A stretch of 41,700 nt of DNA from Candidatus Limnocylindrales bacterium (GCA_046704485.1 JBJKRU010000338.1:1-41700), one strand, 5' to 3'; numbered from the stretch's first letter, positions 2,980 to 41,700 are shown. Made by a program: numbers and translations. The notes: generated by a model not told the origin, from the letters alone.

Positions 2980-3399
2980 CTAATCCGGCTGGACCACGCC
3001 GATGGTGAGCAGGATGTTGGCGTAGATCCGCTGCTCGCCGGTGGCGATCGCCAGGGCGCAGTCGGGGCCGCGCGCCATGTCGTAGAACTCGAACCGGCCG
3101 AGGCGGGTGAGCCCGGTGCCGGGCAGCAGGCGCCGGAAGTCCCCGTAGATCGAGGGCTCGCTCCCGTCGTCGGGGCCCATGACGTGCGCCGCCTCGACCG
3201 GGATCGCGTCGGCGATGACGTCCAGCACGTCGGTGACGGTCAGCTTGCCCGGCTCGAGGTTCAGGAACACCCGGCGGGCCGACGGGTTGGAGCGCGTCGC
3301 CAGCGGGTAGTTCCCGTCGGCGATCAGGACCTGCGCGCCGTGGCCGGCCTCGCCCAGGGCGGCCAGGATCTGGGGGTGGAGCAGACGAGTCCTCAGCAT
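2980..3399 (-). CDS. fucU: L-fucose mutarotase (RbsD/FucU family)
   Basis: 139 aa. [32 protein letters not shown] and the C-terminal NILLTIGVV are typical of RbsD/FucU. An AAGGAGG SD sits just upstream of the ATG. The gene ends 40 nt upstream of fucI. Confidence 0.9.
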
Positions 3400-18057: not shown

Positions 18058-18070
18058 GGTCTCGTTCCCC

Positions 18071-19015: not shown

Positions 19016-19093
19016 GTGCGCTCCGTGCTTCGTCCCCGGGACAGAGGTCCCGCCCGTATCAGTATGTGACCCTAGCGGGCGGTCGATGACGAC

Positions 19094-19120
19094 GGGAGGC
19101 GGCCCGAGGGGCCGCCTCCC
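19094..19120 (-). other. Perfect 11-bp intercistronic stem-loop between the SBP and permease genes
   Basis: GGGAGGCGGCC (19094-19104), a 5-nt loop, then GGCCGCCTCCC (19110-19120). It lies about 26 nt after the SBP stop codon and has no U-tract. Confidence 0.6.
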
Positions 19121-19145
19121 GTCGCCTTGTGGTGCGCGGAGCGCG

Positions 19146-29019: not shown

Positions 29020-29066
29020 ATCGTGCCTCCGGATGCGGCGGCCGCGTTGCTGGCGCGGATCAGCGC

Positions 29067-29096
29067 TGGACAAACCTTTGTCCGGTTTGGTAGACT
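29067..29096 (+). promoter_or_regulatory. Candidate lutABC promoter
   Basis: TGGACA (29067-29072), an 18-nt spacer, then TAGACT (29091-29096). Confidence 0.4.
29068..29083. promoter_or_regulatory. Type-2-like perfect inverted repeat GGACAAA-CC-TTTGTCC
   Basis: 7+7 perfect dyad. It matches the 27807 site at 12 of 15 aligned positions (GACAAACsTTTG) and overlaps the -35 and spacer of the candidate lutA promoter. Confidence 0.5.
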
Positions 29097-29101
29097 GCTG
29101 C

Positions 29102-29115
29102 TGGTAACGATATCA
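29102..29115. promoter_or_regulatory. Type-1 operator (TGGTAACGATATCA) just downstream of the candidate lutA -10
   Basis: It fits TGnTAnCGnTAnCA and lies in the manC-paralogue / lutA divergent region. Confidence 0.55.
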
Positions 29116-29214: not shown

Positions 29215-29949
29215 GTGCGTTTGGCGCTCTTCGTCGCATGCTTCAACGATGCCCTGTTCCCGGAAGTCGGACGGGCGACCGTTCGGATCCTGGAGGCGCT
29301 CGGCCACGAGGTCATCTTCCCAGAGGCACAGACGTGCTGCGGGCAGGTCCACTTCAACACCGGGTACTGGGACGCCTGCGGTCCGCTGGTCCGCCGGTTC
29401 ACCGACGCCTTCGCCGAGTACGACGCGGTCGTCACGCCATCGGCATCGTGCGCCGCGATGGTTCGTCGCCATCACGGCACCGTCGCGCAGCACACCGGGG
29501 ATGCCGCACTCGAGGCGGCGGCCGCCGACCTTGCGCCGCGCGTCCACGAGCTCACCGAGTTCCTCCTCGACATCGATGGAGCCCCGGTTCCTGCCGAGCC
29601 ATTTCCACACGCGGTGGCGATCCACCCGACATGCCATTCGTCGCGCCTGCTTGCCATCGGGGACCGACCAGGCCGACTGCTAGCTGCCGTTCCCGAGTTG
29701 CGCCTCGTTGAACTGCCCGGCGCCGAGCAGTGCTGCGGGTTCGGCGGCACCTTCGCGATCAAGAACGAAGCGACCTCGGTCGCGATGGGGATCGACAAGG
29801 TGGCCTCGATCGAGGCAAGCGGGGCCGACGTGCTCACAGCCGCGGACACGTCATGCCTGATGCACATCGGCGGTCTGCTGAGCCGCAGGCGCTCGCGAGT
29901 CCGCGTCATGCACCTCGCCGAGATCCTGGCAGCGGGCCTCCCCGCATGA
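29215..29949 (+). CDS. lutA: L-lactate utilisation Fe-S oxidoreductase subunit LutA (YkgE-like)
   Basis: I place the start at GTG 29215, with an SD in GTGGAGGG upstream, rather than ORF-track 28513. Two CCG-type motifs are present (EAQTCCGQ and AEQCCGFGG). Confidence 0.9.
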   Translation: MRLALFVACFNDALFPEVGRATVRILEALGHEVIFPEAQTCCGQVHFNTGYWDACGPLVRRFTDAFAEYDAVVTPSASCAAMVRRHHGTVAQHTGDAALEAAAADLAPRVHELTEFLLDIDGAPVPAEPFPHAVAIHPTCHSSRLLAIGDRPGRLLAAVPELRLVELPGAEQCCGFGGTFAIKNEATSVAMGIDKVASIEASGADVLTAADTSCLMHIGGLLSRRRSRVRVMHLAEILAAGLPA

Positions 29950-31430
29950 CGCAGCGTCCCCTCCCCCCGCCGACGCCGCGGTTCGCCGGCACGCCGCCCT
30001 TCCCCGAAGCTGCGCGGACGGCGCTCTCCGACGAGCAGCTGCGGGCGAATCTGCTACGGGCGACGTCGACGATCCGCGCCAAGCGGGCGCGGGCAGTGGC
30101 CGAGCGTGACGACTGGGAGGGACTCCGCGCGGCCGGCGCGGCCGTGAAGGACGAGGCGCTCGCTCGGCTGCCGGACCTGCTCGAGCAGCTTGAGCAGAAC
30201 GTGACCGCTGCAGGCGGGACGGTCCACTGGGCACAGGACGCGGCCGAGGCGAACGCGATCGTGCTCGGGATCGTGCGCTCAACGGGCGCCGACGAGGTGG
30301 TCAAGGTCAAGAGCATGGCCACCCAGGAGATCGAACTGAACGAGGCGCTCGCCGCGGCAGGGATCGCCGCCTGGGAGACCGACCTGGCCGAACTCATCGT
30401 CCAGCTCGGAGGCGATCTCCCGAGCCACTTCCTCGTCCCGGCGATCCACCGCAACCGGGCCGAGATCCGCGAGATCTTCCTGCGCGAGATGGGACGCGCA
30501 GGTCAGCCCGCCCCTGACGGACTCAGCGATGAACCTGCGGCGCTCGCCGACGCCGCTCGCCTCCATCTCCGCGAGAAGTTCCTGCGGGCGAAGGTCGCGG
30601 TCTCCGGTGCGAACTTCGCCGTGGCCGAGACTGGCACCGTGATGGTGGTGGAATCGGAGGGCAACGGCCGGATGTGCCTGACCCTCCCGCAGACGCTGAT
30701 CACCGTCATGGGCATCGAGAAGGTCATCCCGAGGTGGCAGGACCTCGAGGTGTTCCTCCAGTTACTCCCGCGCTCGTCGACTGCCGAGCGGATGAACCCG
30801 TATACATCGATGTGGACTGGCGTCACGGCAGGCGATGGGCCAGCCTCATTCCACCTCGTCCTCCTCGACAACGGACGGACCTCTGCGCTCTCCGACCCGG
30901 TCGGGCGACAGGCCCTGCGGTGCATCAAGTGCAGCGCGTGCCTCAACGTCTGCCCGGTGTACGAGCGCACCGGCGGCCGTGCGTACGGATCTCCGTATGC
31001 CGGACCGATCGGCGCCATCCTCACGCCACAGCTCCGGGGCATCTCCCGCCACCCCGTCGATGCGCAGACCGCATCGCTGCCGTACGCATCGTCCCTCTGC
31101 GGGGCGTGCTTCGAGGTGTGCCCCGTGATGATCGACATCCCGCAGGTGCTCGTGCACCTCCGGGCCAAGGTCGTCGAGCAGCACGGATATCTCGCCGGGC
31201 TGACCCAGGAGGGAATGCTGATGCGCGGGCTCTCGGCGGCATTCGCCGGCCCGAGTCGACTCGACGCCGCTGAGCGGGTCGCCGCCGTCGGGTCGCGCGC
31301 CATCGCGCGGCGCGGCGTGGTCCGGCGAGTTCGGCTGCCAGGACTCGCGGGAGCGTGGTTCCGGGCGCGCGACTTGCGTCCCCTTGCGCACCCGTCCTTC
31401 CGGCGCTGGTGGCGGGCACGGTCCCGATGA
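29946..31430 (+). CDS. lutB: L-lactate utilisation iron-sulfur protein LutB (YkgF-like)
   Basis: ATG overlaps the lutA stop (ATGA). An LUD-type domain is followed by two ferredoxin-like Cys clusters (CIKCSACLNVCP and CGACFEVCP). Confidence 0.9.
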   Translation: MTQRPLPPPTPRFAGTPPFPEAARTALSDEQLRANLLRATSTIRAKRARAVAERDDWEGLRAAGAAVKDEALARLPDLLEQLEQNVTAAGGTVHWAQDAAEANAIVLGIVRSTGADEVVKVKSMATQEIELNEALAAAGIAAWETDLAELIVQLGGDLPSHFLVPAIHRNRAEIREIFLREMGRAGQPAPDGLSDEPAALADAARLHLREKFLRAKVAVSGANFAVAETGTVMVVESEGNGRMCLTLPQTLITVMGIEKVIPRWQDLEVFLQLLPRSSTAERMNPYTSMWTGVTAGDGPASFHLVLLDNGRTSALSDPVGRQALRCIKCSACLNVCPVYERTGGRAYGSPYAGPIGAILTPQLRGISRHPVDAQTASLPYASSLCGACFEVCPVMIDIPQVLVHLRAKVVEQHGYLAGLTQEGMLMRGLSAAFAGPSRLDAAERVAAVGSRAIARRGVVRRVRLPGLAGAWFRARDLRPLAHPSFRRWWRARSR

Positions 31431-32065
31431 GCGGCTCGCGCGAAGCGATCCTTGCTGCCGCCCGGCGTGCGCTTGCCGACCGGCCGGCCACCCCGCTGAT
31501 CCCCCGCGCGTACCGAAGTGCCGGCGACCCGGCTGGTGACGTGGTGGCTCTCTTCGCTGAGCGGGTCGCCGACTACCGGGCCGAGGTCCATGTCGTTGCC
31601 GAGCCAGATGTGGCGGATGCGGTCGCCGACATCCTCGCGGCGATCGGCGCGCGGAGGGTGGTGGTGGCGCCGGGCCTCGCGGAGCAGTGGCTGCCGGCTG
31701 GGCTCCCGGGTCAGCTTGCCGATGACCCGCCTCTCTCGAGCGCGGCGCTGGACGCGGTCGATGCCGTGTTGACCGGAAGTGCCGTCGCCATTGCCGAGAC
31801 GGGCACGATCGTGCTGGACGGGGGACCAGGACAGGGCAGGCGGGCGCTCACGCTCGTCCCGGACCATCACATCTGCATCGTGCCGTCAACGCGAGTGGTG
31901 GCCGATGTCCCCGACGCAATCGCCGCGCTCGATCCTCGTCGCCCGCTCACGTGGATCAGTGGTCCCTCGGCCACCAGCGACATCGAACTGGACCGCGTGG
32001 AGGGAGTCCACGGGCCGCGCCACCTCTACGTCCTGATCGCCACTGAACCCCAGGGGTCGGCGTGA
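31427..32065 (+). CDS. lutC: L-lactate utilisation protein LutC (YkgG-like)
   Basis: ATG overlaps the lutB stop (ATGA). It has an LUD domain pattern (LTGSAVAIAETGTIVL, SGPSATSDIE). Confidence 0.9.
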   Translation: MSGSREAILAAARRALADRPATPLIPRAYRSAGDPAGDVVALFAERVADYRAEVHVVAEPDVADAVADILAAIGARRVVVAPGLAEQWLPAGLPGQLADDPPLSSAALDAVDAVLTGSAVAIAETGTIVLDGGPGQGRRALTLVPDHHICIVPSTRVVADVPDAIAALDPRRPLTWISGPSATSDIELDRVEGVHGPRHLYVLIATEPQGSA

Positions 32066-32109: not shown

Positions 32110-32805
32110 TCAGCGAACGGCGCGGGTCGCGGAGAGCCCCAACGCCTGGCGGACCGCCGCCGGCACCGAAGTGAAGTCCGCCGCCACCGCGAACGCGCCG
32201 GCCTCGAGCAGCGCCGCGGCCGGCTGCGAGGACGTGATCCCGAGCACTGGGCATCCGGCGGCGCGCCCGGCGAGCACGCCGTTGCGCGCATCCTCGACCA
32301 CCAGGCACCGGGCCGGGGCCACGCGGAGCCGATCGGTGGCCTGGAGGAACGTCTCCGGGTCGGGCTTCTTGCGGTTGACCAGCTCAGCGGACACCACCAC
32401 GTCGAAGGTCGATATGGCGACGCCGATGGCCGCGAGGTTCCCCTCCAGCTTGGGTCGATCCGATCCGGTTGCCAGCGCAAGCCTGACGCCCGCGGCTCGC
32501 ACCGCCTCCAGGAACGAGACCACGCCCGGCAGCGGCCGCAGCGAGTCCCTGACCAGCTCGAGGTAGATGGCGTACGTCAGCGCCTTGTCCACCGCGAGGT
32601 CTGCGGTGATCCCGTGACGCTCGGCCGCGCCGGTGATGAAACGGTCGTCGCCGGCACCCACGAACGACGCGAAATCGTCATGGGTGGTCGAGATGCCATA
32701 ACGGCGGCGCAGCGCCTCCGCGGCGGCCGCCTCGATGAACGGCTCCGAGTCGCACAGCACGCCGTCCATGTCGAAGACCACGGCATCGAACGCGCGGACG
32801 GGCAT
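32110..32805 (-). CDS. HAD-superfamily subfamily IA hydrolase (beta-phosphoglucomutase / sugar-phosphatase-like)
   Basis: Motifs are VVFDMDGVLCDS (DxDG), LATGS and VVEDARNGVLAGRAAG. I place the start at ATG 32805. Confidence 0.85.
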   Translation of the reverse strand: MPVRAFDAVVFDMDGVLCDSEPFIEAAAAEALRRRYGISTTHDDFASFVGAGDDRFITGAAERHGITADLAVDKALTYAIYLELVRDSLRPLPGVVSFLEAVRAAGVRLALATGSDRPKLEGNLAAIGVAISTFDVVVSAELVNRKKPDPETFLQATDRLRVAPARCLVVEDARNGVLAGRAAGCPVLGITSSQPAAALLEAGAFAVAADFTSVPAAVRQALGLSATRAVR

Positions 32806-32830
32806 GCCGCGAACGTAGCACACGAACCGC

Positions 32831-32859
32831 TTGACACGAGGGCTGTCTTCTGTGAGTAT
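32831..32859 (+). promoter_or_regulatory. Candidate promoter of the DeoR regulator / rhamnose operon
   Basis: TTGACA (32831-32836), a 17-nt spacer ending in TGt, then GAGTAT (32854-32859). This has an extended -10-like TGnGAGTAT arrangement and lies in a locally A+T-richer stretch. Confidence 0.4.
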
Positions 32860-32868
32860 GCGAAATCA

Positions 32869-32885
32869 ATCGAAGGCGATCGAAG
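32869..32885 (+). repeat. Direct repeat ATCGAAG x2 at 10-bp register (a third partial AATCGA at 32896-32901)
   Basis: The sequence reads ATCGAAGgcgATCGAAG. It lies between the candidate promoter and the DeoR-family gene, and DeoR-type regulators commonly use direct repeats. Confidence 0.35.
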
Positions 32886-32928
32886 TTTCGTTTCCAATCG
32901 ATGTACTTCCGATAAGGAGTTCGCAACG

Positions 32929-33747
32929 ATCCCCTCGCCAGCCGATCCGGGAGCCGCGGTCTTCGCCCAGGAGCGGCAGGAGCGCATCGTCGCGCTCCTC
33001 GCGGAGCAGGGGCGCGTCCGCGTCACGGACCTCGCTGCCCGGTTCGGCGTCTCCACGGTGACCATCCGCAAGGACCTGGCCCTCCTCGAGGCTGAGGCGC
33101 GCCTCTCGCGAACGCACGGGGGCGCGATCGCGACGCGCGCCAGCGGCGCTGCCGAGCCCGACTTCGCCATTCGCGAGCGCCTGCAGTTCGACCAGAAGGT
33201 GGCGATCGGCGAGGCCGCCGGACGCCTGATCGAGGACGGCGAGAGCATCGCGTTCGACGCCAGCACGACCGCGCTGTATGTCGCGCGCCAGATCCTCGCC
33301 CTCGACTGGCACCACCTCACGGTGCTGACGAACAGCATCCGCATCGCGCTCGAGCTGGCGGGCAAGTCCGGCGTCACTGTCGTGATGCTCGGCGGCCGCG
33401 TCCGCTCGGAGGCGCTGTCCGTGGTGGGACCGCTCGGCGACGGCGTGTTCCGCCGCGTCAACGTGCAGAAGGCCTTCGTCGGCGCCATGGGCCTGCGGCT
33501 CGATGTCGGGCTCACGGACGCGATGGAGGAGGAAGCGCAGATCAAGCGCTCCATGGTGACCGCTGCCCGAGAGGTGTACGCCCTCGTGGACCACACGAAG
33601 TGGGGCCGGGCCGCCGCGGCCACGTTCTGCAAGATCGACGGGCTGACCGGCGTGGTCACCGACACCGGGGCGCCTGCCGACATGGTGGCCGAGCTGCGTC
33701 GCACCGGCGCGGTGGTCATCCTCGCCGGGACGGGCAGCGAGCGATGA
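32929..33747 (+). CDS. DeoR-family transcriptional regulator (start codon uncertain)
   Basis: HTH VRVTDLAARFGVSTVTIRKDLALLE is followed by a DeoR C-terminal sensor domain. No in-frame ATG, GTG or TTG lies between the promoter region and the HTH. AAGGAG (32914-32919) is followed 9 nt later by in-frame ATC at 32929. Confidence 0.75.
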   Translation: MPSPADPGAAVFAQERQERIVALLAEQGRVRVTDLAARFGVSTVTIRKDLALLEAEARLSRTHGGAIATRASGAAEPDFAIRERLQFDQKVAIGEAAGRLIEDGESIAFDASTTALYVARQILALDWHHLTVLTNSIRIALELAGKSGVTVVMLGGRVRSEALSVVGPLGDGVFRRVNVQKAFVGAMGLRLDVGLTDAMEEEAQIKRSMVTAAREVYALVDHTKWGRAAAATFCKIDGLTGVVTDTGAPADMVAELRRTGAVVILAGTGSER

Positions 33748-33792: not shown

Positions 33793-35268
33793 TTGACTGA
33801 GCGGCATCCGCTGCGGCTCGCCGCTGCCGACCTGGGCGCCGAGAGCGGGCGGCTGCTGGTCGGCTCGTTCGACGGAGACCACCTCGGGCTCGAGGAGGTC
33901 CACCGGTTCCCGAACGGCCCGGTGCGCGTCGGAGACACGCTGCACTGGGATGCGCTGCGGCTGTGGAGCGAGATCGACGCCGGGCTCCGCAGGGCTGGTG
34001 CCGCCGGGCCGGTCGAATCCGTCGCCGTGGACAGCTGGGGCGTCGACTTCGGCCTGCTGGACGACCGCGGCCGACTCATGGCAAACCCGGTCCACTACCG
34101 CGACCGGCGTACCGATGGCGTCCCCGAGCGGGTCTTCGCGCTGGTGCCGCGCGACGAGGTGTACGCCACCACCGGCATCCAGGTCATGGCGATCAACACG
34201 CTCTACCAGCTCGCCTCCATGGCGCTGGACCACGACCCGATGCTGGAGCGGTCCCAGCGGCTGCTGCTCATGGCCGACCTGTTCACCTGGCTGCTGTCAG
34301 GCGTGCAGGCGGGCGAGTACACCAACAGCACCACGACGCAGTGCCTGGACGCCGAGGCGCGTGACTGGGCGCGGCCCATGCTGGAGCGGATCGGGATCCC
34401 CGCCGTCATCCTGCCCGAGGTCGTCGACCCCGGCACCAGGCTCGGTCGACTCCTCCCCGAGCTTGCCGGGGCGACGGGCCTCGGGGGCACGCAGGTCGTC
34501 CTGGCAGGCTCGCACGACACCGCGTCCGCCGTCGCCGGGACGCCGCTCGCGTCGCCGCGGACTGCGTACCTCTCGTCGGGCACCTGGTCACTCGTCGGCC
34601 TCGAGGTGCCGGCGCCGGTGATCAACGCCGCGTCCTCGGCCGCCAACCTCACCAACGAGGGCGGCGTGGCTGGAACGATCCGGCTCCTCCGCAACGTCAC
34701 CGGCCTGTGGCTGGTCCAGGAGTGCCGCCGCGCGCTGTGGCACGCCGATGCGGCGCCGTCGTACGCGGAGATCGTCGCGATGGCGGACGCGGCGCCAGCC
34801 TTGACAGCCTTCATCGACCCCGACGACGAGCGGTTCCTCCACCCGGGCGACCTGCCCGAGCGCATCCGCGCCTTCTGCACCGCGACCGGTCAGCCGGTGC
34901 CGGACGACATCGGCACCCTGCTGCGCGTCATCTTCGAAAGCCTCGCCCTGCGGTACGCGGACACCCTCGACCAGCTCGCAGCCGCCTCGGGCGTCGTCCC
35001 CGACGGTGTCCACATCGTCGGCGGCGGCTCCAACAACGCGCTGCTCAACCGGCTGACCGCGGAGGCCACAGGCCTGCCGGTCACGGCCGGGCCAGTCGAG
35101 GCAACCGCGATCGGGAACCTCCTGCTGCAGGCGATCGCGACTGGCCACCTGGGCTCGCTGGCCGAAGGCCGCGCCTTGGTCGCCCGATCATTCCCGATGT
35201 CCACGTACGAACCCTCCGGCGACTGGACCGAGGCCCGTGCCCGGTTTGCCGTCGTGACCCGCCGATGA
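33793..35268 (+). CDS. rhaB: Rhamnulokinase (FGGY family)
   Basis: TTG start with GAGGAGG 9 nt upstream. It is collinear by eye with E. coli RhaB. Shared blocks include DLGAESGR, HRFPNG, DSWGVDFGLLD, YRDRRT, NTLYQL, YTNSTTTQ, SHDTASAV, AYLSSGTWSL, NLTNEGG, GLWLVQE, FESLALRYAD, HIVGGGSNN and AGPVEATAIGN. Confidence 0.9.
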   Translation: MTERHPLRLAAADLGAESGRLLVGSFDGDHLGLEEVHRFPNGPVRVGDTLHWDALRLWSEIDAGLRRAGAAGPVESVAVDSWGVDFGLLDDRGRLMANPVHYRDRRTDGVPERVFALVPRDEVYATTGIQVMAINTLYQLASMALDHDPMLERSQRLLLMADLFTWLLSGVQAGEYTNSTTTQCLDAEARDWARPMLERIGIPAVILPEVVDPGTRLGRLLPELAGATGLGGTQVVLAGSHDTASAVAGTPLASPRTAYLSSGTWSLVGLEVPAPVINAASSAANLTNEGGVAGTIRLLRNVTGLWLVQECRRALWHADAAPSYAEIVAMADAAPALTAFIDPDDERFLHPGDLPERIRAFCTATGQPVPDDIGTLLRVIFESLALRYADTLDQLAAASGVVPDGVHIVGGGSNNALLNRLTAEATGLPVTAGPVEATAIGNLLLQAIATGHLGSLAEGRALVARSFPMSTYEPSGDWTEARARFAVVTRR

Positions 35269-36488
35269 AGGAACGCGCGAGCGAGGTGGCGCCGACTGCA
35301 CCCGGGCCGCTGGCCGTGGCCAACGTCCACGTCCACGTGCCGCCCAACTTCTCGGCCTTCGCCGACGCGGAGGACGCGGTGGCGACGGCCGTGCGCGAGG
35401 GCGTGCGGGTCCTCGGCGTGTCCAACTTCCACGACCACCGGGTGTACCGGCGGTTCGCCGACGCGGCGGCCGCCAGCGGAGTGGTGCCCCTATTCGGGCT
35501 CGAGTACATCACCGTAGTGGAGCCGCTCCGGGCGGCAGGCACGCGGATCAACGACCCGGCCAACCCCGGCCGCATGTACCTCTGCGGCAAGGGCGCCAAC
35601 CCGTTCAAGGCCGCGACGGCGACCGCGGCGCGCATCGACGAGGGCGCCCGCGCGGCGAACCGTGCGCGGGCGACCACCATGGCCGGGCTGCTGTGCGAGC
35701 GGTTCCGTGCGGGCGGCATCGGGATCGACCTCGACGCCGATGGGATCGCTGCGGGCGTGGCTGCGAGCGCGCGCGTACCAGTGGACTGGGTGGTTCTCCA
35801 GGAGCGCCACCTTGCCATGGCATTCCAGCGCGCGCTCTTCGCCGCGGTTGCGGTCGGCGACCGCGCTGCCCGGCTCGCGGCGGTGTACGGTGCCGCGCCG
35901 TCGGCGGCGCCGGACGACGCCGTCGGCACGCAGGGCGAGATCCGCTCCCGGCTCATGAAGGCGGGCGGGCCTGCCTTCGTCGAGGAATCGCCGCTCACGT
36001 TCGAGGACGCGGTCCGCCTGGTCCTCGAGTGGGACGGCATCCCGGCGTACCCGACGCTCGGCGACGGAACGTCACCGGTCTGCCCGTTCGAGGATTCGCC
36101 CGACGATCTGGCGGGCCGGCTGCGCGACCTCGGGATCCACGCCGCAGAGCTCATCCCGGCCCGGAACGCGCCCTCCGTCGTCGACGCCTACGTCCGCGCC
36201 TTCCGCTCGGCGGGTATCGTCGTCACTGCCGGCACCGAGCACAACACACTCGAGCGCATCCCGCTCGAGCCGCGCGCCCGGGGCGGAGCGGCACTGTCCG
36301 AGGTCGCCCGCGCGGCCTTCTACGAGGGCGCGTGCGTGGTGGCGGGGCACCAGGCGGAGCGGGCTTCCGGCCGGGCCGGGTTCGTCGACCCGGAGGGTCG
36401 ACCGGGGACGGGGGACCGGAGAGCATGGGTCCGGCGCTTCGCCGAGATCGGAGCCGGGATCATCGAGAGAAGGAGCGGAATGGCGTGA
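35265..36488 (+). CDS. Conserved-looking protein of unknown function with HxH metal-site-like N-terminus (PHP/amidohydrolase-like?)
   Basis: ATG overlaps the rhaB stop (ATGA), and its own stop overlaps the rhaEW start (GTGA). The frame is strongly GC3-biased. Motifs are VANVHVHVPPNFSAF, VLGVSNFHD and TAGTEHN. It shows no resemblance to RhaA or the P. stutzeri-type L-rhamnose isomerase. Confidence 0.6.
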   Translation: MKERASEVAPTAPGPLAVANVHVHVPPNFSAFADAEDAVATAVREGVRVLGVSNFHDHRVYRRFADAAAASGVVPLFGLEYITVVEPLRAAGTRINDPANPGRMYLCGKGANPFKAATATAARIDEGARAANRARATTMAGLLCERFRAGGIGIDLDADGIAAGVAASARVPVDWVVLQERHLAMAFQRALFAAVAVGDRAARLAAVYGAAPSAAPDDAVGTQGEIRSRLMKAGGPAFVEESPLTFEDAVRLVLEWDGIPAYPTLGDGTSPVCPFEDSPDDLAGRLRDLGIHAAELIPARNAPSVVDAYVRAFRSAGIVVTAGTEHNTLERIPLEPRARGGAALSEVARAAFYEGACVVAGHQAERASGRAGFVDPEGRPGTGDRRAWVRRFAEIGAGIIERRSGMA

Positions 36489-38524
36489 ACCCCCCCGGCT
36501 CTCCCTTTCCCGCGCTCGCGCCCGACGTCGACCGCGTCACCGCCCTGATCGATCTCTCGAACCGGTTCGGCGCCGATTCCGCGTTCTCGCGCGCGGGCGG
36601 CGGCAACTCCTCGGTCAAAGACGGCGACGTGCTGTGGATCAAGCCGTCCGGCGTCCCGCTCGCCACGCTGGGCGCCGAGGACCTAGTGCCGCTCGACCGC
36701 ACCGTCCTCCTGGAACTGCTGGCGCAGGACCCAGCGACGCTGCCGCCTGATGGCGATCCGGTCATGGCCGCAGCGGCCGAGGCGCGGATGGGGCACGCGA
36801 AGGGCCGCCGTCCGAGCGTGGAGCTCCTGTTCCACGCCCTCCTCCCCGAGAGGTATGTCCTCCACACGCACCCGATGGCCGTCAATGCGGTGACCTGCAG
36901 CGCCGAAGGCGCGACGCTCGCCGCGCGCCTCTTCGGCGACCGGGTCGTCTGGGTGCCGTACACCGACCCGGGCCTGCCGCTCGCGCACGCCATCCTCGAC
37001 GCGAGGCGCGCCCACGAGGCGCGGACCGGCGGCAGAGCGCCGGCGATCACCCTGCTCGCCAATCACGGGCTGATCGTAGCGGGCGAGACCACCGCCGAGA
37101 TCGACGCCCAGACGGCATGGCTGACCGGCGCCATCAGCGCGGCCCTCGACGCGGCCGCGGCACCGACCGCCTTTCCGGCGCCGCTCGACGAGGCGGCGGC
37201 CGGCCGGGCGATCGCCGAGCTCGCGCCGGCCCTGCGCGCCGGCCTGTCAACAGCCCGCCGACGCGTCGTGGTGTTCGACGACGACGCACTCGCGGCCTCG
37301 TTCGCTGCCGGTGCGCAGGGGCGTGCCTTCGTGGTCGGCGGCCCGCTCATCCCGGACCAGATCGTCTACACGGGGTCGTTCCCGCTGCTGCTCGACATCG
37401 ACGGCGTCCCCCCCGACGAGCTGGCCGGGCATGCGCTCAGCCGCCTGGCAGCGCACGAGTCGGCACAGGGCGGCGCGCCCAGCGTGGTGGTGGTGCCGCG
37501 CCTCGGCCTGTTCGCGGTCGGGGACTCGTGGGCGCAGGCGGACACGGCACGCCACGTCTACCTCGACATGCTCAGGGTGGCCGATAGCGCCCTCCGGCTC
37601 GGCGGAATCCGCCATCTGGACGAGCCCGAGCGCCGCTTCATCGAGCAGTGGGAGGCGGAAGCCTACCGGAAGCAGATCGCCGCCGGGGCAGGCGGCGGGG
37701 GCCGCGTCGCCGACCGGATCGCCGTGGTGACCGGCGCCGCGCAGGGCTTCGGGCTGGGGATCGCCGAGGGCCTCGTCGCCCAAGGGGCCCATGTGGTGCT
37801 CGCGGACCTCAACGGCCCGCTCGCACAGGCCAACGCCGAGCGGCTGGAGGCACGGTACGGCCCGGGCCGCGCCGTCGCGATCCCGATGGACGTGACCGAC
37901 GAGGCCAGCGTGGCCGACGGGATCGCCGCCGTCGTCCGCAGGTTCGGCGGCCTGGACATCGTGGTCTCGAACGCTGGCGTGCTGCGGGCCGGAGCCGTGA
38001 CGACGCAGCCCGCTGCCGAGTTCGACCTCGTCACGCAGGTCAACTACCGGGGCTACTTCCTGCTGGTCAAGCACACCGCACCGGTCATGGCCCGGCAGCA
38101 CGCGGTCAACCCGGCATGGTGGGGCGACATCGTGGAGGTCAACTCCAAGTCGGGCCTCGTGGGGTCGTCGCGCAACGCCGCCTATGCTGGCTCCAAGTTC
38201 GGCGGGATCGGCCTGACGCAGTCGTTCGCGCTCGAGCTCGTCGGGGACGGCATCAAGGTGAACGCCGTCTGCCCTGGCAACTTCCTCGACGGGCCGCTGT
38301 GGAGCGACCCGGTCAACGGGCTCTTCGTGCAGTACCTGCGCGAGGGCAAGGTGCCCGGGGCGCAGTCGGTGGAGGACGTCCGCCGCGCCTACGAGGCGAA
38401 GGTTCCGATGGGTCGCGGCTGCACGCCGGCCGACGTGCTCGAGGCGCTGCTCTACCTCGTCGCCCAGCAGTACGAGACGGGCCAGGCCCTGCCCGTCACC
38501 GGCGGCCAGGTGATGCTGTCGTGA
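36485..38524 (+). CDS. rhaEW: Bifunctional rhamnulose-1-phosphate aldolase (class II aldolase/adducin fold) / short-chain dehydrogenase (lactaldehyde dehydrogenase type)
   Basis: I place the start at GTG 36485 rather than ORF-track 35693. The N-terminal half has GGGNSSVKDGDVLWIKPSGVPL and HTHP. The C-terminal classical SDR has VVTGAAQGFGLGIA, NSKSG and YAGSK (YxxxK). Confidence 0.9.
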   Translation: MNPPGSPFPALAPDVDRVTALIDLSNRFGADSAFSRAGGGNSSVKDGDVLWIKPSGVPLATLGAEDLVPLDRTVLLELLAQDPATLPPDGDPVMAAAAEARMGHAKGRRPSVELLFHALLPERYVLHTHPMAVNAVTCSAEGATLAARLFGDRVVWVPYTDPGLPLAHAILDARRAHEARTGGRAPAITLLANHGLIVAGETTAEIDAQTAWLTGAISAALDAAAAPTAFPAPLDEAAAGRAIAELAPALRAGLSTARRRVVVFDDDALAASFAAGAQGRAFVVGGPLIPDQIVYTGSFPLLLDIDGVPPDELAGHALSRLAAHESAQGGAPSVVVVPRLGLFAVGDSWAQADTARHVYLDMLRVADSALRLGGIRHLDEPERRFIEQWEAEAYRKQIAAGAGGGGRVADRIAVVTGAAQGFGLGIAEGLVAQGAHVVLADLNGPLAQANAERLEARYGPGRAVAIPMDVTDEASVADGIAAVVRRFGGLDIVVSNAGVLRAGAVTTQPAAEFDLVTQVNYRGYFLLVKHTAPVMARQHAVNPAWWGDIVEVNSKSGLVGSSRNAAYAGSKFGGIGLTQSFALELVGDGIKVNAVCPGNFLDGPLWSDPVNGLFVQYLREGKVPGAQSVEDVRRAYEAKVPMGRGCTPADVLEALLYLVAQQYETGQALPVTGGQVMLS

Positions 38525-40185
38525 CCCTGTCCCCGGAGAGACCCGCCGTGACCGACCTGCCCGCCACCCAGCACGCGATCCAGTTCACCGGCCCTGGTGT
38601 GCTGCGGCACAACCGCGCCAAGCCCGTGCCGGTCCCCGGCCCGACCCAACTGGTCCTCGAGGTCGAGGCGACCGGGATCTGCTTCTCCGACACCAAGCTC
38701 CTCCACGCGTGGACGAACCACCCGCGGAAGGGGCCGGTGCTGGCCGGCCTGCCCGAGGCGGTGCTCGCTGAGATCCCTTCCTACACCCCCGCTGAGCAGC
38801 CCGGCACGCCGGGCCACGAGTGCTGCGCGAGGATCGTGGCCGTTGGCGCTGACGTCCGACGCCACCACGTCGGCGAGCGCGTGCTCGTCCAGACCGACTA
38901 CCGACATCTGCCCACCGCGGGCTCGAACGCCGCCTTCGGGTACAACTTCGAAGGCGGCCTCGCCGAGTACGCGCTGCTCGACGAGCGCATGATCCTCGAC
39001 CCCGACACCGGCGAGCGGTTCCTGATCCCCGTTGGCGAGGGGCCGTCCGGCTCCGCGGTGGCACTGCTCGAGCCGTGGGCGTGCGTCGAGAAGTCGTACT
39101 CCACCCGGGAGCGGCAGACGCTCAAGGCCGGTGGCCGGCTGCTGGTGGTCGTGGAGGCCGGGGCCGCACTGACCGGGCTCGATCCCCTCTCCAAGGCCGC
39201 CGCGCCCGCCGAGGTCACCCGGCTCGACCCCGTCGACGACGCCTCGCTCGCGGCGCTCGGGGACGCCCTCTTCGACGACATCGTCTACGCCGGCGCCTCC
39301 GCCGATCGGATCGAGGCGCTCCAGGAGCTGCTCGCCCCGGGCGGCGTCCTCGACGTCGTGCTCGGCGGGGCACAGGTGGACCGCGACGTCGCGATCGACG
39401 TCGGCCGGATCCATTACGACCCCATCCGCTTCACGGGAACCACCGGCACGAGCGCCGCTGACGGCTATGCCCGCATCCCCCCGAACGGCGAGTTGCGCGA
39501 CGGCGACACGGTGGCAATCATCGGCGCCGCGGGGCCGATGGGCTTCATGCACGTGATCCGCGCCGCCACCATGGGCTTCACGCGCATCCGGATGGCGGCC
39601 CTCGACATCGACGACGCCCGCCTCGCGCACCTGGCCGAGGTTGCCGGGCCCCTGGCCGGGGCCAGCGGCGTCGAGGCCGAGTTCGTCAACAGCCGGGAGA
39701 CGCCGCCGGCCAGCGGCTGGGCGACATACGTCGGCGTCATGGTCCCCGCGCCGCAGCTCGTGGTGCAGGCGGTCACGATGGCCGCCGCGGGCGCGCGCCT
39801 CAACCTGTTCGCAGGCTTCGCCGTGGGCACCCGCGCACCGCTCGACCTCAATGTGGTGATCGGCCGCGGGCTGTACCTGTTCGGGACGTCGGGCTCCGAG
39901 ATCGCGGACATGCAGACGGTCCTCGGCCGGCTCGAGGACGGGCGCCTCGACACGAACGTCTCGCTCGACGCAGTCTGCGGGATGGAGGGCGTCCGCGACG
40001 CACTCGCGGCGGTCGAGGCTCGCTCGTCGGGCGGCAAGATCGTCGTGTACCCGATGCTCCACGACCTCGGCCTCGTCCGCCTCTCCGAACTGCCGGAGCG
40101 CTTCCCCACGGTCGCGGCCAAGCTCCGCGACGGGCGCTGGAACGCCGAGGCCGAGGCAGAGCTGCTCGCGAGAGCCGGCGCATGA
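38521..40185 (+). CDS. Atypically long (554 aa) medium-chain dehydrogenase/reductase-like protein with an apparent extra, degenerate cofactor-domain copy
   Basis: GTG overlaps the rhaEW stop (GTGA). A GroES-like N-terminal domain (GICFSDTKLLH, GHECCARIV) is followed by two successive Rossmann-like segments. The first lacks GxGxxG (GGRLLVVVEAG ... LAPGGVLDVVLGG ... IRFTGTTGTS). The second has it (VAIIGAAGPMGFMHV ... AAGARLNLFAGF ... LYLFGTSGSE). Confidence 0.7.
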   Translation: MTLSPERPAVTDLPATQHAIQFTGPGVLRHNRAKPVPVPGPTQLVLEVEATGICFSDTKLLHAWTNHPRKGPVLAGLPEAVLAEIPSYTPAEQPGTPGHECCARIVAVGADVRRHHVGERVLVQTDYRHLPTAGSNAAFGYNFEGGLAEYALLDERMILDPDTGERFLIPVGEGPSGSAVALLEPWACVEKSYSTRERQTLKAGGRLLVVVEAGAALTGLDPLSKAAAPAEVTRLDPVDDASLAALGDALFDDIVYAGASADRIEALQELLAPGGVLDVVLGGAQVDRDVAIDVGRIHYDPIRFTGTTGTSAADGYARIPPNGELRDGDTVAIIGAAGPMGFMHVIRAATMGFTRIRMAALDIDDARLAHLAEVAGPLAGASGVEAEFVNSRETPPASGWATYVGVMVPAPQLVVQAVTMAAAGARLNLFAGFAVGTRAPLDLNVVIGRGLYLFGTSGSEIADMQTVLGRLEDGRLDTNVSLDAVCGMEGVRDALAAVEARSSGGKIVVYPMLHDLGLVRLSELPERFPTVAAKLRDGRWNAEAEAELLARAGA

Positions 40186-41216
40186 AGGCGGCGCGCCTCC
40201 ACGGCCCGGGAGACCTCCGGATCTCGGAGGAGCCGGTGCCCGAGCCGGGCGCCGGCGAGGCACTCGTCCGGGTGACGGCGGTCGGCATCTGCGGGTCCGA
40301 TCTCCACTGGTTCGAGGAGTCCGCCATCGGCGACGCCGCCCTCACGCATCCCCTCGTGCTCGGGCACGAGGCATCCGGCGTGATCGAGAGCGGGCCGCGG
40401 ACAGGGCAGCGCGTGGCGATCGACCCGAGCCTGGCCTGCGGCAGATGCGACACGTGCACACGCGGGCTCCCGCACCTGTGCCCGGACGTCCGCTTCCTCG
40501 GCCACAGCATCACCGACGGGGCGATGCGCCAGTGGCTGACATGGCCCGAGAGCCATCTCGTTCCGCTGCCCGACACGATCAGCGACGATGCGGGGGCGAT
40601 GCTCGAGCCCCTCGGCGTGGCGATCCACGCCCTTCGGCTGGCGCGGCTCCGGCCGGGCGACACGGTGGGCGTGTTCGGCGCGGGGCCGATCGGGCTGCTG
40701 CTGATCCGCCTCGCCCTCGTGTCGGGCGCCTCGCTCGTCGTCGCGACGGACCGGATCGCGGAGCGCGTGGCGGCCGCTGCCGCGGAGGGTGCGACGGCGG
40801 CGCTGGTCGATGGCGGCAGCGAGCGGGAGACCCTGCGCGCCGTCCTGCCTGGCGGCCGCGTCGACACGGCGATCGAGATCGCGGGCGACGAAGACGCCAT
40901 CGCGACCGCGGTGGAGCTCGTCAAGCCGGGTTCGCGCGTGGTGATCGCCGGCATCCCGGTGGGCGATGCCGTGCGCATCCCCGTGGCGACGGCCCGACGC
41001 AAGGGCCTCGACCTGCGCCTCTCGCGGCGCATGAACCGCGTCTTTCCGGCCGCCATCGCGCTGGCCGGGAGGATCCACCCGGAGACGCTGGTCTCCGCTA
41101 CCTACGGGATCGCCGACGCAGACATCGCGATGCGGACCGCCGCACGGCGCATCGGCGCCAAGATCCTTGTCCGTCCCCATGACCACCCGTCTTTCCCCGC
41201 CTCGGGCGGACAGTGA
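40182..41216 (+). CDS. Zinc-type medium-chain alcohol/polyol dehydrogenase (sorbitol / L-threonine / L-galactonate dehydrogenase-like)
   Basis: ATG overlaps the upstream stop (ATGA). Motifs are GICGSDLHWF, GHEASGVI, CGRCDTCTRGLPHLC (structural Zn cluster) and GVFGAGPIGLL. Confidence 0.9.
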   Translation: MKAARLHGPGDLRISEEPVPEPGAGEALVRVTAVGICGSDLHWFEESAIGDAALTHPLVLGHEASGVIESGPRTGQRVAIDPSLACGRCDTCTRGLPHLCPDVRFLGHSITDGAMRQWLTWPESHLVPLPDTISDDAGAMLEPLGVAIHALRLARLRPGDTVGVFGAGPIGLLLIRLALVSGASLVVATDRIAERVAAAAAEGATAALVDGGSERETLRAVLPGGRVDTAIEIAGDEDAIATAVELVKPGSRVVIAGIPVGDAVRIPVATARRKGLDLRLSRRMNRVFPAAIALAGRIHPETLVSATYGIADADIAMRTAARRIGAKILVRPHDHPSFPASGGQ

Positions 41217-41256: not shown

Positions 41257-41700
41257 GTGACCACCGACATCCAGCCCGACCCGTCCATCGTCTTCCGCAG
41301 CGACGCCCGCCCGGACTTCACGCCGTTCGAGGACGGGCTGGGGTCGGTCCGGGGATTCACGTACGCGGGCGACCTCGCGTCCGAGGTCGCGGCCGGACGG
41401 CTGGACAAGGCCAGCGCCCTCGCCCTGCTCGACGACATGCTCGCCATCCGCGAGATGGAGGAGATGATCGTCCGGCTCCGGGGCGGCGGCGGCTACGAGC
41501 CGCTGCCCGGCTACGACTACCGCGGCCCCACGCACGTGTCGATCGGCCAGGAGGCATCGGCGGTCGGGGCCAGCTCGGTCCTGCGCCTCGCCGACAACGT
41601 GACGTCGTCGCACCGCGGCCACGGCGACGCGATCGCGAAGGGGTTCTCCGGCATCCGCAAGATGTCCCTCGAGCAGCTCCGTGCCCGGCTGGGCCGGGAG
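41257..41700 (+). CDS. TPP-dependent dehydrogenase E1 component alpha subunit (acetoin/2-oxoacid dehydrogenase type), 5' part only
   Basis: It is absent from the ORF track because it runs off the window; I translated it by eye from GTG 41257 (SD CAGGAG 10 nt upstream). Motifs are MLAIREMEEMIV, YRGPTHVSIGQEA and SSHRGHGDAIAKG. Confidence 0.75.
   Translation, partial: MTTDIQPDPSIVFRSDARPDFTPFEDGLGSVRGFTYAGDLASEVAAGRLDKASALALLDDMLAIREMEEMIVRLRGGGGYEPLPGYDYRGPTHVSIGQEASAVGASSVLRLADNVTSSHRGHGDAIAKGFSGIRKMSLEQLRARLGRE

What the first reader, a model, noticed from the sequence alone, without database searches (positions are those of the whole stretch)
35265..36488. Unknown HxH metalloprotein exactly where the missing L-rhamnose isomerase should be (between rhaB and rhaEW, coupled at both ends)
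Seen: the window has rhaM, rhaB and a bifunctional aldolase/SDR. It has no gene resembling either known L-rhamnose isomerase type (RhaA, or the P. stutzeri/actinobacterial RhaI). A 407-aa strongly GC3-biased ORF overlaps the rhaB stop (ATGA 35265) and the rhaEW start (GTGA 36485). Its N-terminus NVHVHVPPNFSAF ... GVSNFHD and the later TAGTEHN recall PHP/amidohydrolase-type metal sites. I cannot assign a family. Inference: it is a candidate non-orthologous replacement for L-rhamnose isomerase. It could instead be a phosphatase or other accessory step acting on rhamnulose-1-P-level intermediates.
Basis: partly seen in the sequence, partly recalled or inferred. Interest (0 to 1): 0.65.

Follow-up and report, generated by a model that had tools for sequence, protein, structure and literature searches.

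The report
Unstudied PHP-fold enzyme, not rhamnose isomerase
The gene is real and founds a large unstudied family of PHP-fold metal enzymes locked to a dehydrogenase module in deoxy-sugar gene clusters, but it is not a stand-in for L-rhamnose isomerase, because in related genomes it sits beside the normal isomerase.

Summary
The 407-aa ORF at 35265-36488 is real. It has GC3 0.90 and lies in a five-gene chain of 4-bp start/stop overlaps. At least 1,689 unannotated homologs exist. The fold is PHP: pLDDT 89.5, with top structural matches RNase AM/TrpH and Cv1693. E. coli RhaA scores as noise.

The isomerase-replacement idea still fails its own test:
- RhaI lies within 10 kb of X in 26 of 80 species-representative loci.
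- In the closest relative the order is rhaI-rhaD-X.
- In another lineage a canonical RhaA is coupled directly to X.
- A chromosome with a window-like rhaB-X layout has a full RhaI cluster 2 Mb away.

X's constant partner is the next gene, an SDR resembling sorbitol-6-phosphate dehydrogenase, with or without an aldolase half. It follows X in 69 of 75 loci. A long MDR dehydrogenase comes next, and often a PDH-type E1/E2/E3 complex.

Family-wide, only one of the three canonical PHP metal sites is conserved. I therefore read X as a repurposed PHP metalloenzyme, most likely a hydrolase working with the SDR on an anionic deoxy-sugar intermediate. The exact reaction is unresolved.

The parts
32614..33747 (+). 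DeoR-family regulator. The ORF as listed is 377 aa, but the true start is probably near 32950 because the HTH begins at residue 121.
   Evidence: Pfam HTH_DeoR and DeoRC. A DeoR gene (family F4) occurs in 49 of 78 X loci.
33793..35268 (+). FGGY sugar kinase, the rhamnulokinase (rhaB) ortholog. Its stop overlaps the X start (ATGA).
   Evidence: Best NCBIfam match is rhamnulokinase TIGR02627 (449 bits, below the 528 cut-off). It is 89% identical to the single kinase of the complete rha cluster in L004 and 76% to the canonical-cluster kinase of L092.
35265..36488 (+). X: a 407-aa divergent PHP-superfamily (beta/alpha)7-barrel metalloenzyme with a large helical insertion (about residues 119-255). 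It founds an unannotated family.
   Evidence: AF2 model with pLDDT 89.5 and pTM 0.89. Foldseek top hits are 9etk, 2yb1 and 3e0f, with E 3e-9 to 4e-8 and target-normalised TM 0.71-0.77. hhalign to a PHP profile gives 81.5% probability. Family size; conserved residues.
36485..38524 (+). F2: a class II aldolase (RhaE-like) fused to an SDR. It is a divergent RhaEW paralog and the invariant downstream partner of X.
   Evidence: Pfam Aldolase_II and adh_short. TIGR02632 scores 327.6 bits, below the 567.75 cut-off. The SDR half is closest to sorbitol-6-phosphate dehydrogenase 5o3z (180.8 bits; next best 119). F2 follows X in 69 of 75 loci, with a 4-bp overlap in 49 of 69. The aldolase motifs PSVE, HTH and NHG and the SDR motifs TGxxxGxG and YxxxK are readable in the translation.
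38521..40185 (+). F3: a 554-aa zinc MDR-type dehydrogenase with an insert of about 170 aa. It is the second conserved partner.
   Evidence: Pfam ADH_N. Only weak PDB and NCBIfam matches, to sorbitol or threonine dehydrogenases. It occupies position +2 in 55 of 78 loci and is present in 53 of 55 long loci.
40182..41216 (+). F7: a 344-aa polyol-type zinc MDR dehydrogenase.
   Evidence: Pfam ADH_N and ADH_zinc_N. Nearest PDB entries are ketose reductase 1e3j and sorbitol dehydrogenases (E about 1e-50). Present in 37 of 55 long loci.
41257..41700 (+). N-terminal part of a PDH-type E1 (fused alpha/beta); it runs off the window.
   Evidence: NCBIfam PDH_E1_alph_y match. The syntenic L004 gene is 772 aa, and its E1-beta part passes the cut-off (363.4 bits against 321); it is followed by an E2-E3 fusion.
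29221..32065 (+). LutA/LutB/LutC-like lactate-utilisation genes just upstream. Their association with the module is possible but not conserved in other loci.
   Evidence: Pfam CCG, LUD_dom plus Fer4_8, and LUD_dom. These families are singletons in the locus clustering.

Best explanation
X is a repurposed member of the PHP (polymerase and histidinol phosphatase) superfamily of (beta/alpha)7-barrel metalloenzymes. It is the first gene of a conserved, mostly translationally coupled unit. The unit consists of X, an SDR resembling sorbitol-6-phosphate dehydrogenase (with or without a RhaE aldolase half), a long MDR dehydrogenase, and often a polyol-type MDR. A PDH-type E1/E2/E3 complex frequently follows, and a DeoR regulator is often nearby. 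This unit docks next to L-rhamnose, L-fucose or other sugar clusters. X is not the L-rhamnose isomerase.

Proposed mechanism (inferred): X binds an anionic, probably phosphorylated, deoxy-sugar-derived intermediate in a pocket lined by conserved Arg, Lys and His residues. Part of this pocket corresponds to the distal 5'-phosphate pocket of RNase AM/Cv1693. X then uses the one metal site it has kept (H22, H24, E80, E325, plus H326) to hydrolyse the product that the partner dehydrogenase makes. Which bond is cut is unresolved. My split is about 0.2 for a phosphate ester and about 0.3 for a C-C or C-O bond of an oxidised intermediate (beta-diketone, ester or lactone).

Shown: the fold, the family, the gene linkage, the residue conservation and the co-occurrence with isomerases. 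Inferred: the substrate class and the chemistry.
For: - Fold and homology.
- Linkage: F2 is the downstream neighbour in 69 of 75 loci, with a 4-bp overlap in 49 of 69, while the upstream neighbour varies (divergent DeoR, rhaB, RhaD, FucU, RhaI, PEPC). F2 and F3 are each present in 53 of 55 long loci.
- The linkage holds in distant lineages at about 30% identity that have no rhamnose genes: DeoR-MDR-X-SDR with a divergent E2-E3-E1 in L087/L088, and an E1 next to X in L091.
- About ten loci have an SDR-only partner with no aldolase half. In one such genome the aldolase half sits in the canonical rha cluster and the SDR half stays with X.
- A protein fusing X to the aldolase domain exists (P0161).
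- The SDR is closest to sorbitol-6-phosphate dehydrogenase.
- Conserved site: H22, H24, E80, E325, H326, plus R135/R181/H182, which align with or next to the distal-pocket residues R110/R141/H143 of RNase AM (roles from PMC9410882).
- From general knowledge: every characterised PHP enzyme is a metal-dependent hydrolase.
Against: - No biochemical data exist for any family member.
- Four or five of the nine canonical trinuclear ligands are replaced family-wide: D20->F29, H45->mostly Tyr, H83->Y105, H198->Y262 or D267, and H257 is arguably kept as H326. The phosphate clamp R201 is also not conserved. D20A kills RNase AM. Classic phosphoesterase chemistry is therefore doubtful, and a non-hydrolytic reaction is a real possibility.
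- I could not inspect model coordinates, so ligand geometry comes from alignments only.
- A kinase plus a phosphatase in one catabolic operon would waste ATP.
- RhaEW alone converts rhamnulose-1-P to DHAP and lactate in vitro (PMC3870299), so no missing step forces a role for X.
- Some loci have neither a kinase nor sugar genes nearby.
Confidence: 0.5

Rival explanations
1. X catalyses a non-hydrolytic reaction at a mononuclear metal site on a sugar phosphate or on L-lactaldehyde: isomerisation, epimerisation or phosphate elimination. This would resemble uronate isomerase, which evolved inside the amidohydrolase superfamily, or methylglyoxal-synthase-type chemistry. Possible substrates are a 6-deoxy-ketohexose-1-phosphate, a tetrose phosphate left after TPP-dependent cleavage, or the lactaldehyde/hydroxyacetone pair.
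For: - Only the M-alpha ligand set (HxH, Glu, Glu) plus H326 is conserved. New family-specific invariants (Y105, Y262, K109, N96-D97, E180, E276, R300-N301, H362-Q363) point to new chemistry.
- Several locus types have a kinase, X and dehydrogenases but no recognisable isomerase or aldolase within 10 kb.
- A Mannitol_dh-X fusion (P0121) would fit an isomerase-reductase pair like UxaC-UxaB.
- From general knowledge: uronate isomerase shows that such barrels can become isomerases.
Against: - No PHP-fold enzyme with non-hydrolytic chemistry is known to me.
- UxaC and xylose-isomerase-like barrels are absent from the significant fold hits.
- The P0121 fusion is seen on a single 4.6-kb contig.
- The reaction and substrate are guesses.
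Confidence: 0.25
2. One reading: X is a non-orthologous replacement for L-rhamnose isomerase, converting L-rhamnose to L-rhamnulose in genomes that lack rhaA and rhaI.
For: - The window has rhaB and an aldolase/SDR but no RhaA or RhaI homolog.
- X is coupled to rhaB here.
- 17 of 36 long loci with rhaB have no RhaI within 10 kb.
Against: - X co-occurs in cis with a curated-threshold RhaI in 26 of 80 loci, and with RhaA in L089.
- The closest relative has rhaI-rhaD-X.
- A genome with a rhaB-X layout has RhaI 2 Mb away. Other loci without a nearby isomerase have RhaI elsewhere on the same contig: L022 is confirmed, and L034, L040 and L020 are inferred from matching contig lengths.
- X is tied to the SDR and MDR, not to rhaB, and it occurs with no rhamnose genes at all.
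- The fold is PHP, and E. coli RhaA ranks 46th with E = 0.31.
Confidence: 0.03
3. X is a non-catalytic structural or regulatory subunit of the aldolase/SDR-MDR assembly. It would resemble the degenerate PHP domain of E. coli Pol III alpha, which has lost its metal ligands.
For: - About half of the canonical PHP ligands are lost.
- X is tightly coupled to F2, and occasionally fused to it.
Against: - Pocket residues remain strongly conserved down to 24% identity, including HxH, E80, E325-H326-N327, K109, Y105 and Y262. That pattern is typical of an active site rather than an interface.
- X is a free-standing 400-aa protein.
Confidence: 0.05

Closest known systems
RNase AM (TrpH/YciV; PDB 7ug9, 9etk), Cv1693 3',5'-nucleotide bisphosphate phosphatase (2yb1) and BAD_1165 (3e0f): the COG0613-type PHP enzymes
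   Same: - Same distorted (beta/alpha)7 barrel with a helical insertion after strand 4.
- The N-terminal HxH, the strand-3 Glu, the strand-6 Glu and the strand-7 acid/His motif align.
- Arg and His residues of the distal phosphate pocket have counterparts: R135 with R110, H182 with H143, and R181 next to R141.
   Different: - Identity is 10-16%.
- The insertion is about twice as long.
- The M-beta histidines (H83, H198), the M-gamma ligands D20 and H45, and the phosphate clamp R201 are replaced family-wide by Tyr, Asp, Phe and other residues.
- The DxH motif has become EH(N).
- The genomic context is sugar catabolism, not nucleotide or RNA metabolism.
L-histidinol phosphate phosphatase and other PHP phosphomonoesterases (Pfam PF02811)
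   Same: Shared superfamily, with an HxH motif at strand 1. Distant X-family members pass the PF02811 gathering score (30-41 bits).
   Different: - Only the first 60-70 of the 164 model positions match.
- The window protein itself scores 15 bits, below the cut-off.
- The trinuclear ligand set is incomplete.
L-rhamnose isomerases RhaA (PF06134) and RhaI (TIGR02635, xylose-isomerase-like TIM barrel)
   Same: Both are found in the same gene clusters as X, and both are metal-dependent barrel enzymes.
   Different: - No sequence or significant fold similarity.
- They co-occur with X rather than replace it.
RhaEW bifunctional rhamnulose-1-phosphate aldolase / lactaldehyde dehydrogenase (Rodionova et al. 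2013, PMC3870299)
   Same: X's invariant partner F2 has the same two-domain architecture, and its best NCBIfam match is TIGR02632.
   Different: - F2 scores far below the equivalog cut-off (327.6 against 567.75).
- F2 often coexists with a separate RhaD.
- About ten loci have F2 as an SDR only.
- The characterised RhaEW enzymes were active in vitro without any X-like protein in the assay.
Uronate isomerase UxaC (amidohydrolase superfamily). This is a functional analogy only, from general knowledge.
   Same: It is a precedent for an HxH metal barrel of a hydrolase superfamily that evolved a sugar isomerase activity.
   Different: There is no detectable sequence match, and no UxaC structure appears among the listed fold hits.

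Membership tests
PHP superfamily (PF02811; polymerase and histidinol phosphatase fold) | [quoted passage not shown] | tested here: met
   The AF2 model (pLDDT 89.5) has seven barrel strands. The top ten Foldseek PDB hits are all PHP proteins, with E from 3e-9 to 6e-4.
PHP superfamily (PF02811; polymerase and histidinol phosphatase fold) | Profile match above Pfam's gathering score | tested here: inconclusive
   The window protein scores 15 bits against a cut-off of 26.4. Eight of ten distant members of the same family score 30-41 bits. hhalign to a four-structure PHP profile gives 81.5% probability and E = 1.1e-5.
PHP superfamily (PF02811; polymerase and histidinol phosphatase fold) | N-terminal HxH motif and strand-3 Glu (M-alpha ligands) | tested here: met
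   H22, H24 and E80 align with H13, H15 and E72 of RNase AM. They are conserved in 88-93% of 69 diverse members.
Canonical PHP phosphoesterases (RNase AM, Cv1693, HPP) | Complete nine-residue trinuclear metal site (H13, H15, D20, H45, E72, H83, H198, D255, H257 in RNase AM) | tested here: not met
   D20 aligns with F29, H83 with Y105, and H198 with D267 or Y262. H45 is mostly Tyr across the family. D255 aligns with E325, and H257 with N327 or with H326 after a one-residue shift. Ligand roles come from PMC9410882.
Canonical PHP phosphoesterases (RNase AM, Cv1693, HPP) | Arg that clamps the scissile phosphate (R201 in RNase AM) | tested here: not met
   The aligned position (S270) is variable.
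Canonical PHP phosphoesterases (RNase AM, Cv1693, HPP) | Phosphoester hydrolase activity | not testable with these tools
   This needs an enzyme assay.
L-rhamnose isomerase, E. coli type (RhaA, PF06134) | Sequence or profile match, and a (beta/alpha)8 fold with a binuclear site | tested here: not met
   No Pfam or NCBIfam hit. PDB entry 1d8w ranks 46th with E = 0.31 and TM 0.28.
L-rhamnose isomerase, RhaI type (TIGR02635/TIGR02629, AP_endonuc_2) | Sequence or profile match | tested here: not met
   No hit. A bona fide RhaI (560.8 bits against a cut-off of 531.35) is a separate gene next to X in relatives.
Functional analog of L-rhamnose isomerase (non-orthologous displacement) | Anti-correlated occurrence with rhaA and rhaI in rha loci and genomes | tested here: not met
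   RhaI lies within 10 kb of X in 26 of 80 loci, and RhaA lies adjacent in L089. 19 of 36 long loci with rhaB also have RhaI. RhaI lies elsewhere on the same chromosome or contig for L009 and L022.
Functional analog of L-rhamnose isomerase (non-orthologous displacement) | L-rhamnose/L-rhamnulose interconversion, or complementation of a rhaA mutant | not testable with these tools
   This needs an experiment.

The most novel reading that the evidence does not exclude
X would be the first PHP-fold enzyme with non-phosphoesterase chemistry. Together with its fixed partners it would form an undescribed branch of 6-deoxyhexose catabolism. The partners are the SDR resembling sorbitol-6-phosphate dehydrogenase, two MDR dehydrogenases and a PDH-type E1/E2/E3 complex.

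One example route: the SDR oxidises rhamnulose-1-P or fuculose-1-P, X cleaves or rearranges the oxidised sugar phosphate, and the methyl-ketone end is delivered to the TPP complex as acetyl-CoA. This could partly or wholly bypass the aldolase. About ten loci have no aldolase half in the gene after X, and at least the L001-type loci have no aldolase at all within 10 kb.
Probability: 0.25. Interest if true: 0.8.

Novelty: new variant of a known kind. Interest (0 to 1): 0.5.

Why it matters
- A large, completely unannotated enzyme family sits at a fixed position in rhamnose and fucose utilisation clusters of abundant soil and freshwater Chloroflexota and of some Actinomycetota. It has about 600 clusters at 50% identity.
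- Its PHP fold has lost most of the canonical phosphatase metal site but keeps a strongly conserved pocket. That is the signature of a new reaction evolving on an old scaffold.
- Its partners suggest that current models of deoxy-sugar catabolism, which end at DHAP plus lactaldehyde or lactate, miss steps in these lineages. The partners are an SDR resembling sorbitol-6-phosphate dehydrogenase, an unusual long MDR dehydrogenase and a PDH-type complex.
- The result also cautions against inferring a "missing enzyme" from a single window. Here the missing isomerase has simply moved elsewhere in related genomes.

Tried and rejected
- Direct family assignment failed. NCBIfam and PDB sequence searches gave nothing, with the single protein and with a 36-sequence profile (chance hits only).
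- My first GC3-based gene caller mis-picked starts and shadow ORFs and even lost X. I replaced it with a codon log-odds caller. That caller still missed X in 6 of 80 loci, which I recovered by tblastn.
- hhalign against the single RNase AM sequence was not significant (probability 0.2).
- The homolog search seeded with E. coli RNase AM returned only near-identical E. coli proteins and was wasted. I built the PHP profile from four PDB sequences instead.
- The fusion proteins gave limited context. P0121 (Mannitol_dh + X) is on one 4.6-kb contig. P0161 (X + aldolase) is at a contig end.
- Literature searches for this family, for PHP proteins in rhamnose clusters and for TPP-based rhamnulose routes found nothing.
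- I considered and rejected three identities for X. It is not an L-rhamnose isomerase (co-occurrence and fold). It is not a class II TIM-barrel aldolase (many loci already have RhaD plus RhaE). It is not a UxaC-like isomerase by homology (no profile or fold hit).
- I could not inspect model coordinates. I also could not hand locus-derived F3 homologs to the structure tool, so the active-site geometry and the F3 fold remain untested.
Full report
**Observation.** The ORF at 35265-36488 (+) is real and encodes 407 aa. Its ATG overlaps the TGA of the upstream FGGY kinase (ATGA). Its TGA overlaps the GTG of the downstream aldolase/SDR gene (GTGA). GC at codon positions 1/2/3 is 0.76/0.56/0.90, like its neighbours. 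The same 4-bp overlaps continue through the next two genes, so rhaB-X-F2-F3-F7 form one coupled chain. The protein has at least 1,689 homologs, all unnamed or "hypothetical" and without a precomputed Pfam domain. An exhaustive profile search finds 592 cluster representatives at 50% identity. Direct annotation fails: there is only a sub-threshold Pfam PHP hit (15 bits against a cut-off of 26.4), no NCBIfam hit and no PDB sequence hit.

tblastn with RhaA, RhaI and RhaD finds nothing better than E = 0.9. Three corrections apply:
- The rhaM-like gene is weak and lies 18 kb away.
- The aldolase/SDR is a divergent paralog of RhaEW (327.6 bits against a cut-off of 567.75).
- The window also carries FucI and FucU at its far end.

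**What the protein is.** An AlphaFold2 model built on the family alignment is confident (pLDDT 89.5, pTM 0.89). It shows a seven-stranded barrel with a helical insertion of about 135 residues after strand 4. In a Foldseek search of the PDB, the ten significant hits are all PHP-domain proteins. The best are V. cholerae and E. coli RNase AM (TrpH), the Cv1693 pAp phosphatase and BAD_1165, with E from 3e-9 to 4e-8 and target-normalised TM of 0.71-0.77. E. coli L-rhamnose isomerase ranks 46th with E = 0.31. A profile of those four PHP enzymes aligns to the X family with 81.5% probability and E = 1.1e-5 over 242 columns. Eight of ten distant X-family members pass Pfam's PHP cut-off. X is therefore a divergent PHP-superfamily protein.

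**Active site.** The RNase AM structure paper assigns these roles (PMC9410882):
- Mn-alpha is bound by H13, E72 and D255.
- Mn-beta is bound by E72, H83 and H198.
- Mn-gamma is bound by D20, H45 and H257.
- R201 holds the scissile phosphate.
- R107, R110 and R141 form the distal 5'-phosphate pocket.
- The D20A mutant is inactive.

In X the alpha set is kept (H22, H24, E80, E325), and E295 matches E225. The other ligands are replaced. D20 aligns with F29 and H83 with Y105. H198 aligns with D267, or with Y262 by eye. R201 aligns with a variable Ser.

Across 69 diverse members (24-48% identical to the window protein) the deep invariants are:
- N20, H22, H24, F29, E80
- the N96-D97-P98-x-N100-P101-G102 loop
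- Y105, K109
- E180-R181-H182
- R227, Y262-P263, E276, E295, R300-N301
- T324-E325-H326-N327
- H362-Q363

The strand-2 His (H56 in the window) is mostly Tyr elsewhere. H326 is more conserved than E325 in far branches. This suggests that the PHP DxH motif became EH through a one-residue deletion. R135 and H182 align with R110 and H143, and R181 lies next to R141. Part of the distal anion pocket therefore appears to be retained. The site is remodelled: one canonical metal site plus many new conserved polar residues. I could not inspect coordinates, so this rests on alignments.

**Genomic context.** I fetched 80 species-representative loci. Most are Chloroflexota MAGs (Limnocylindrales and "Chloroflexia"). 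The rest are Actinomycetota such as Propionicimonas, Micropruina and the cultured Bowdeniella nasicola. I called genes with a codon log-odds model and clustered them.
- The gene after X is F2 in 69 of 75 loci, with a 4-bp overlap in 49 of 69.
- F3, the long MDR, is at +2 in 55 loci. F7, the polyol MDR, is at +3 in 31.
- Among the 55 loci of at least 17 kb, F2 and F3 are each present in 53, rhaB in 36, RhaI in 20 and PDH-type E1/E2/E3 genes in 14.
- The upstream neighbour is variable: divergent DeoR, rhaB, RhaD, divergent FucU, RhaI or PEP carboxylase.

So X is the first gene of an X-F2-F3(-F7) unit that docks onto different sugar clusters.

The unit persists in distant lineages. L089 has RhaA-X-F2, all coupled. 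L087/L088 (about 30% identity) have DeoR-MDR-X-SDR with a divergent E2-E3-E1 and no rhamnose genes. L091 has an E1 and a lipoyl protein beside X.

About ten loci, including those with a window-like layout (L001, L007-L009), have an SDR-only F2 with no aldolase half. In the L001 genome the aldolase half (392 aa, 63% identical to the N-terminal half of the window's F2) sits in the canonical rhamnose cluster, while the SDR half stays with X. A fusion of X with the aldolase domain (P0161) and a single-contig fusion with a mannitol-dehydrogenase-family protein (P0121) also exist.

The partners have these identities:
- The SDR half is distinctly closest to sorbitol-6-phosphate dehydrogenase: PDB 5o3z at 180.8 bits against 119 for the next SDR, and NCBIfam NF009050 at 234-242 bits.
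- F7 resembles sorbitol or xylitol dehydrogenases.
- F3 has an intact zinc motif but no close characterised relative.
- The E1-beta and E3 parts pass PDH-complex cut-offs.
- The window's last partial ORF is the start of that E1.

**Test of the isomerase hypothesis.** It does not.
- The 406-aa neighbour of X in L003 passes the curated RhaI equivalog cut-off (560.8 bits against 531.35).
- By tblastn, RhaI lies within 10 kb of X in 26 of 80 loci.
- L004 is the closest relative, with X 82% identical and the kinase 89% identical. It has one co-directional cluster: DeoR, ABC x4, rhaM, rhaB, rhaI, rhaD, X, F2, F3, F7, E1, E2E3. There X overlaps the rhaD stop. The window therefore looks like that cluster with rhaI and rhaD removed or moved.
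- A canonical RhaA is coupled to X in L089.
- The 4,153,430-bp chromosome behind L001/L009 has the rhaB-X-SDR layout. It also encodes a complete rhaM-kinase-RhaI-aldolase cluster 2 Mb away.
- L022's contig has RhaI about 23 kb from X.

The window's own genome could not be checked.

**Interpretation.** Several things are shown. X is a divergent PHP-fold protein that founds a large unannotated family. It is genetically locked to an SDR resembling sorbitol-6-phosphate dehydrogenase and to a long MDR, often alongside a PDH-type complex. It coexists with both known isomerase types.

The rest is inferred. X most likely binds an anionic, probably phosphorylated, deoxy-sugar-derived intermediate and acts at its single retained metal site on the substrate or product of the partner dehydrogenase. 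I favour a hydrolytic step (about 0.5 in total). Of that, a phosphate ester accounts for about 0.2, and a C-C or C-O bond of an oxidised intermediate accounts for about 0.3. One speculative example is retro-Claisen cleavage of a 2,4-diketo sugar phosphate to DHAP and lactate. That fits two observations: RhaEW released no DHAP without NAD+ (PMC3870299), and SDRs normally oxidise secondary alcohols.

A non-hydrolytic reaction (isomerase, epimerase or eliminase) is a serious rival at about 0.25, because the canonical phosphatase machinery is half gone. The isomerase-replacement reading is about 0.03, and a non-catalytic subunit about 0.05.

**Novelty and interest.** No paper in the searchable library describes this family. 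It is a new variant of a known kind: the PHP superfamily with a remodelled site, in a new metabolic context. It makes a good enzyme-discovery target. It may also point to an unrecognised branch of rhamnose and fucose catabolism in abundant environmental Chloroflexota. The specific claim that attracted attention is not supported. Overall interest is 0.5.

Noticed in passing
window 1134-3399 (-), and 1-1062 (+): An L-fucose isomerase (all three Pfam fucose-isomerase domains) and FucU lie next to a ManC-like nucleotidyl transferase. This is an isomerase for the other common 6-deoxyhexose, about 32 kb from X. FucU or FucI also flank X in 15 and 6 related loci respectively.
   Followed up: partly
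window 27895-29112 (-): A ManC-like gene appears broken. The NTP_transferase N-terminal part (28237-29019/29112) and the beta-helix C-terminal part (27895-28236) lie in different frames. This is probably a frameshifted pseudogene or a sequencing error.
   Followed up: no
window 29221-32065 (+): LutA/LutB/LutC-like lactate-utilisation genes sit directly upstream of the DeoR-rhaB-X cluster. This fits lactate as a pathway product in this organism. They are not found near X in the other loci.
   Followed up: partly
window 32110-32823 (-) and 32614-33747 (+): A HAD-family hydrolase on the minus strand overlaps the 5' extension of the 377-aa DeoR ORF. The DeoR HTH starts at residue 121, so the real regulator start is probably near 32950 and the two genes are divergent.
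   Followed up: no
window 21437-27788: A cluster here looks like a non-phosphorylative sugar-acid route, but its substrate is unknown. It holds a UxaA-type dehydratase (split SAF and catalytic parts), a family III CoA-transferase, a solute-binding protein, a GFO/IDH/MocA dehydrogenase and an Amidohydrolase_2 lactonase-like gene.
   Followed up: no
window 16760-20324 (-): A weak L-rhamnose-mutarotase-like gene (37 bits against a cut-off of 99.6) heads a CUT1-type ABC transporter (two permeases and a binding protein), flanked by LacI regulators. It may be the deoxy-sugar uptake system of this organism.
   Followed up: no
window 38521-40185 (+) (F3): This 554-aa MDR dehydrogenase has intact zinc motifs (GICFSD, GHECC) and an insert of about 170 aa holding a second, degenerate Rossmann-like segment. 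It has no close solved or curated relative, yet it is as tightly linked to X as the SDR is.
   Followed up: partly
L001 11185-12282 and L092 10048-11226 (same 4.15-Mb chromosome): This is a natural fission of the RhaEW-type fusion. The aldolase half sits in the canonical rhaM-kinase-RhaI cluster. The SDR half, with a 95-aa N-terminal extension, sits after X 2 Mb away, next to a second rhaB-like kinase.
   Followed up: yes
L093 6449-11147 (same contig as L022, about 23 kb from X): Here the gene order is FGGY kinase, RhaI, then a split transketolase (N and C parts). A transaldolase/FSA gene, a DeoR regulator and another fused E1 are nearby. This hints at a TPP-dependent route for rhamnulose in these Chloroflexota.
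   Followed up: no
window 36485-38524 (SDR half, residues 407-679): The RhaW-type SDR is much closer to sorbitol-6-phosphate dehydrogenase than to any other SDR. The original RhaEW paper also saw no DHAP without NAD+. Together these raise the possibility that this domain oxidises the sugar phosphate rather than free lactaldehyde.
   Followed up: partly
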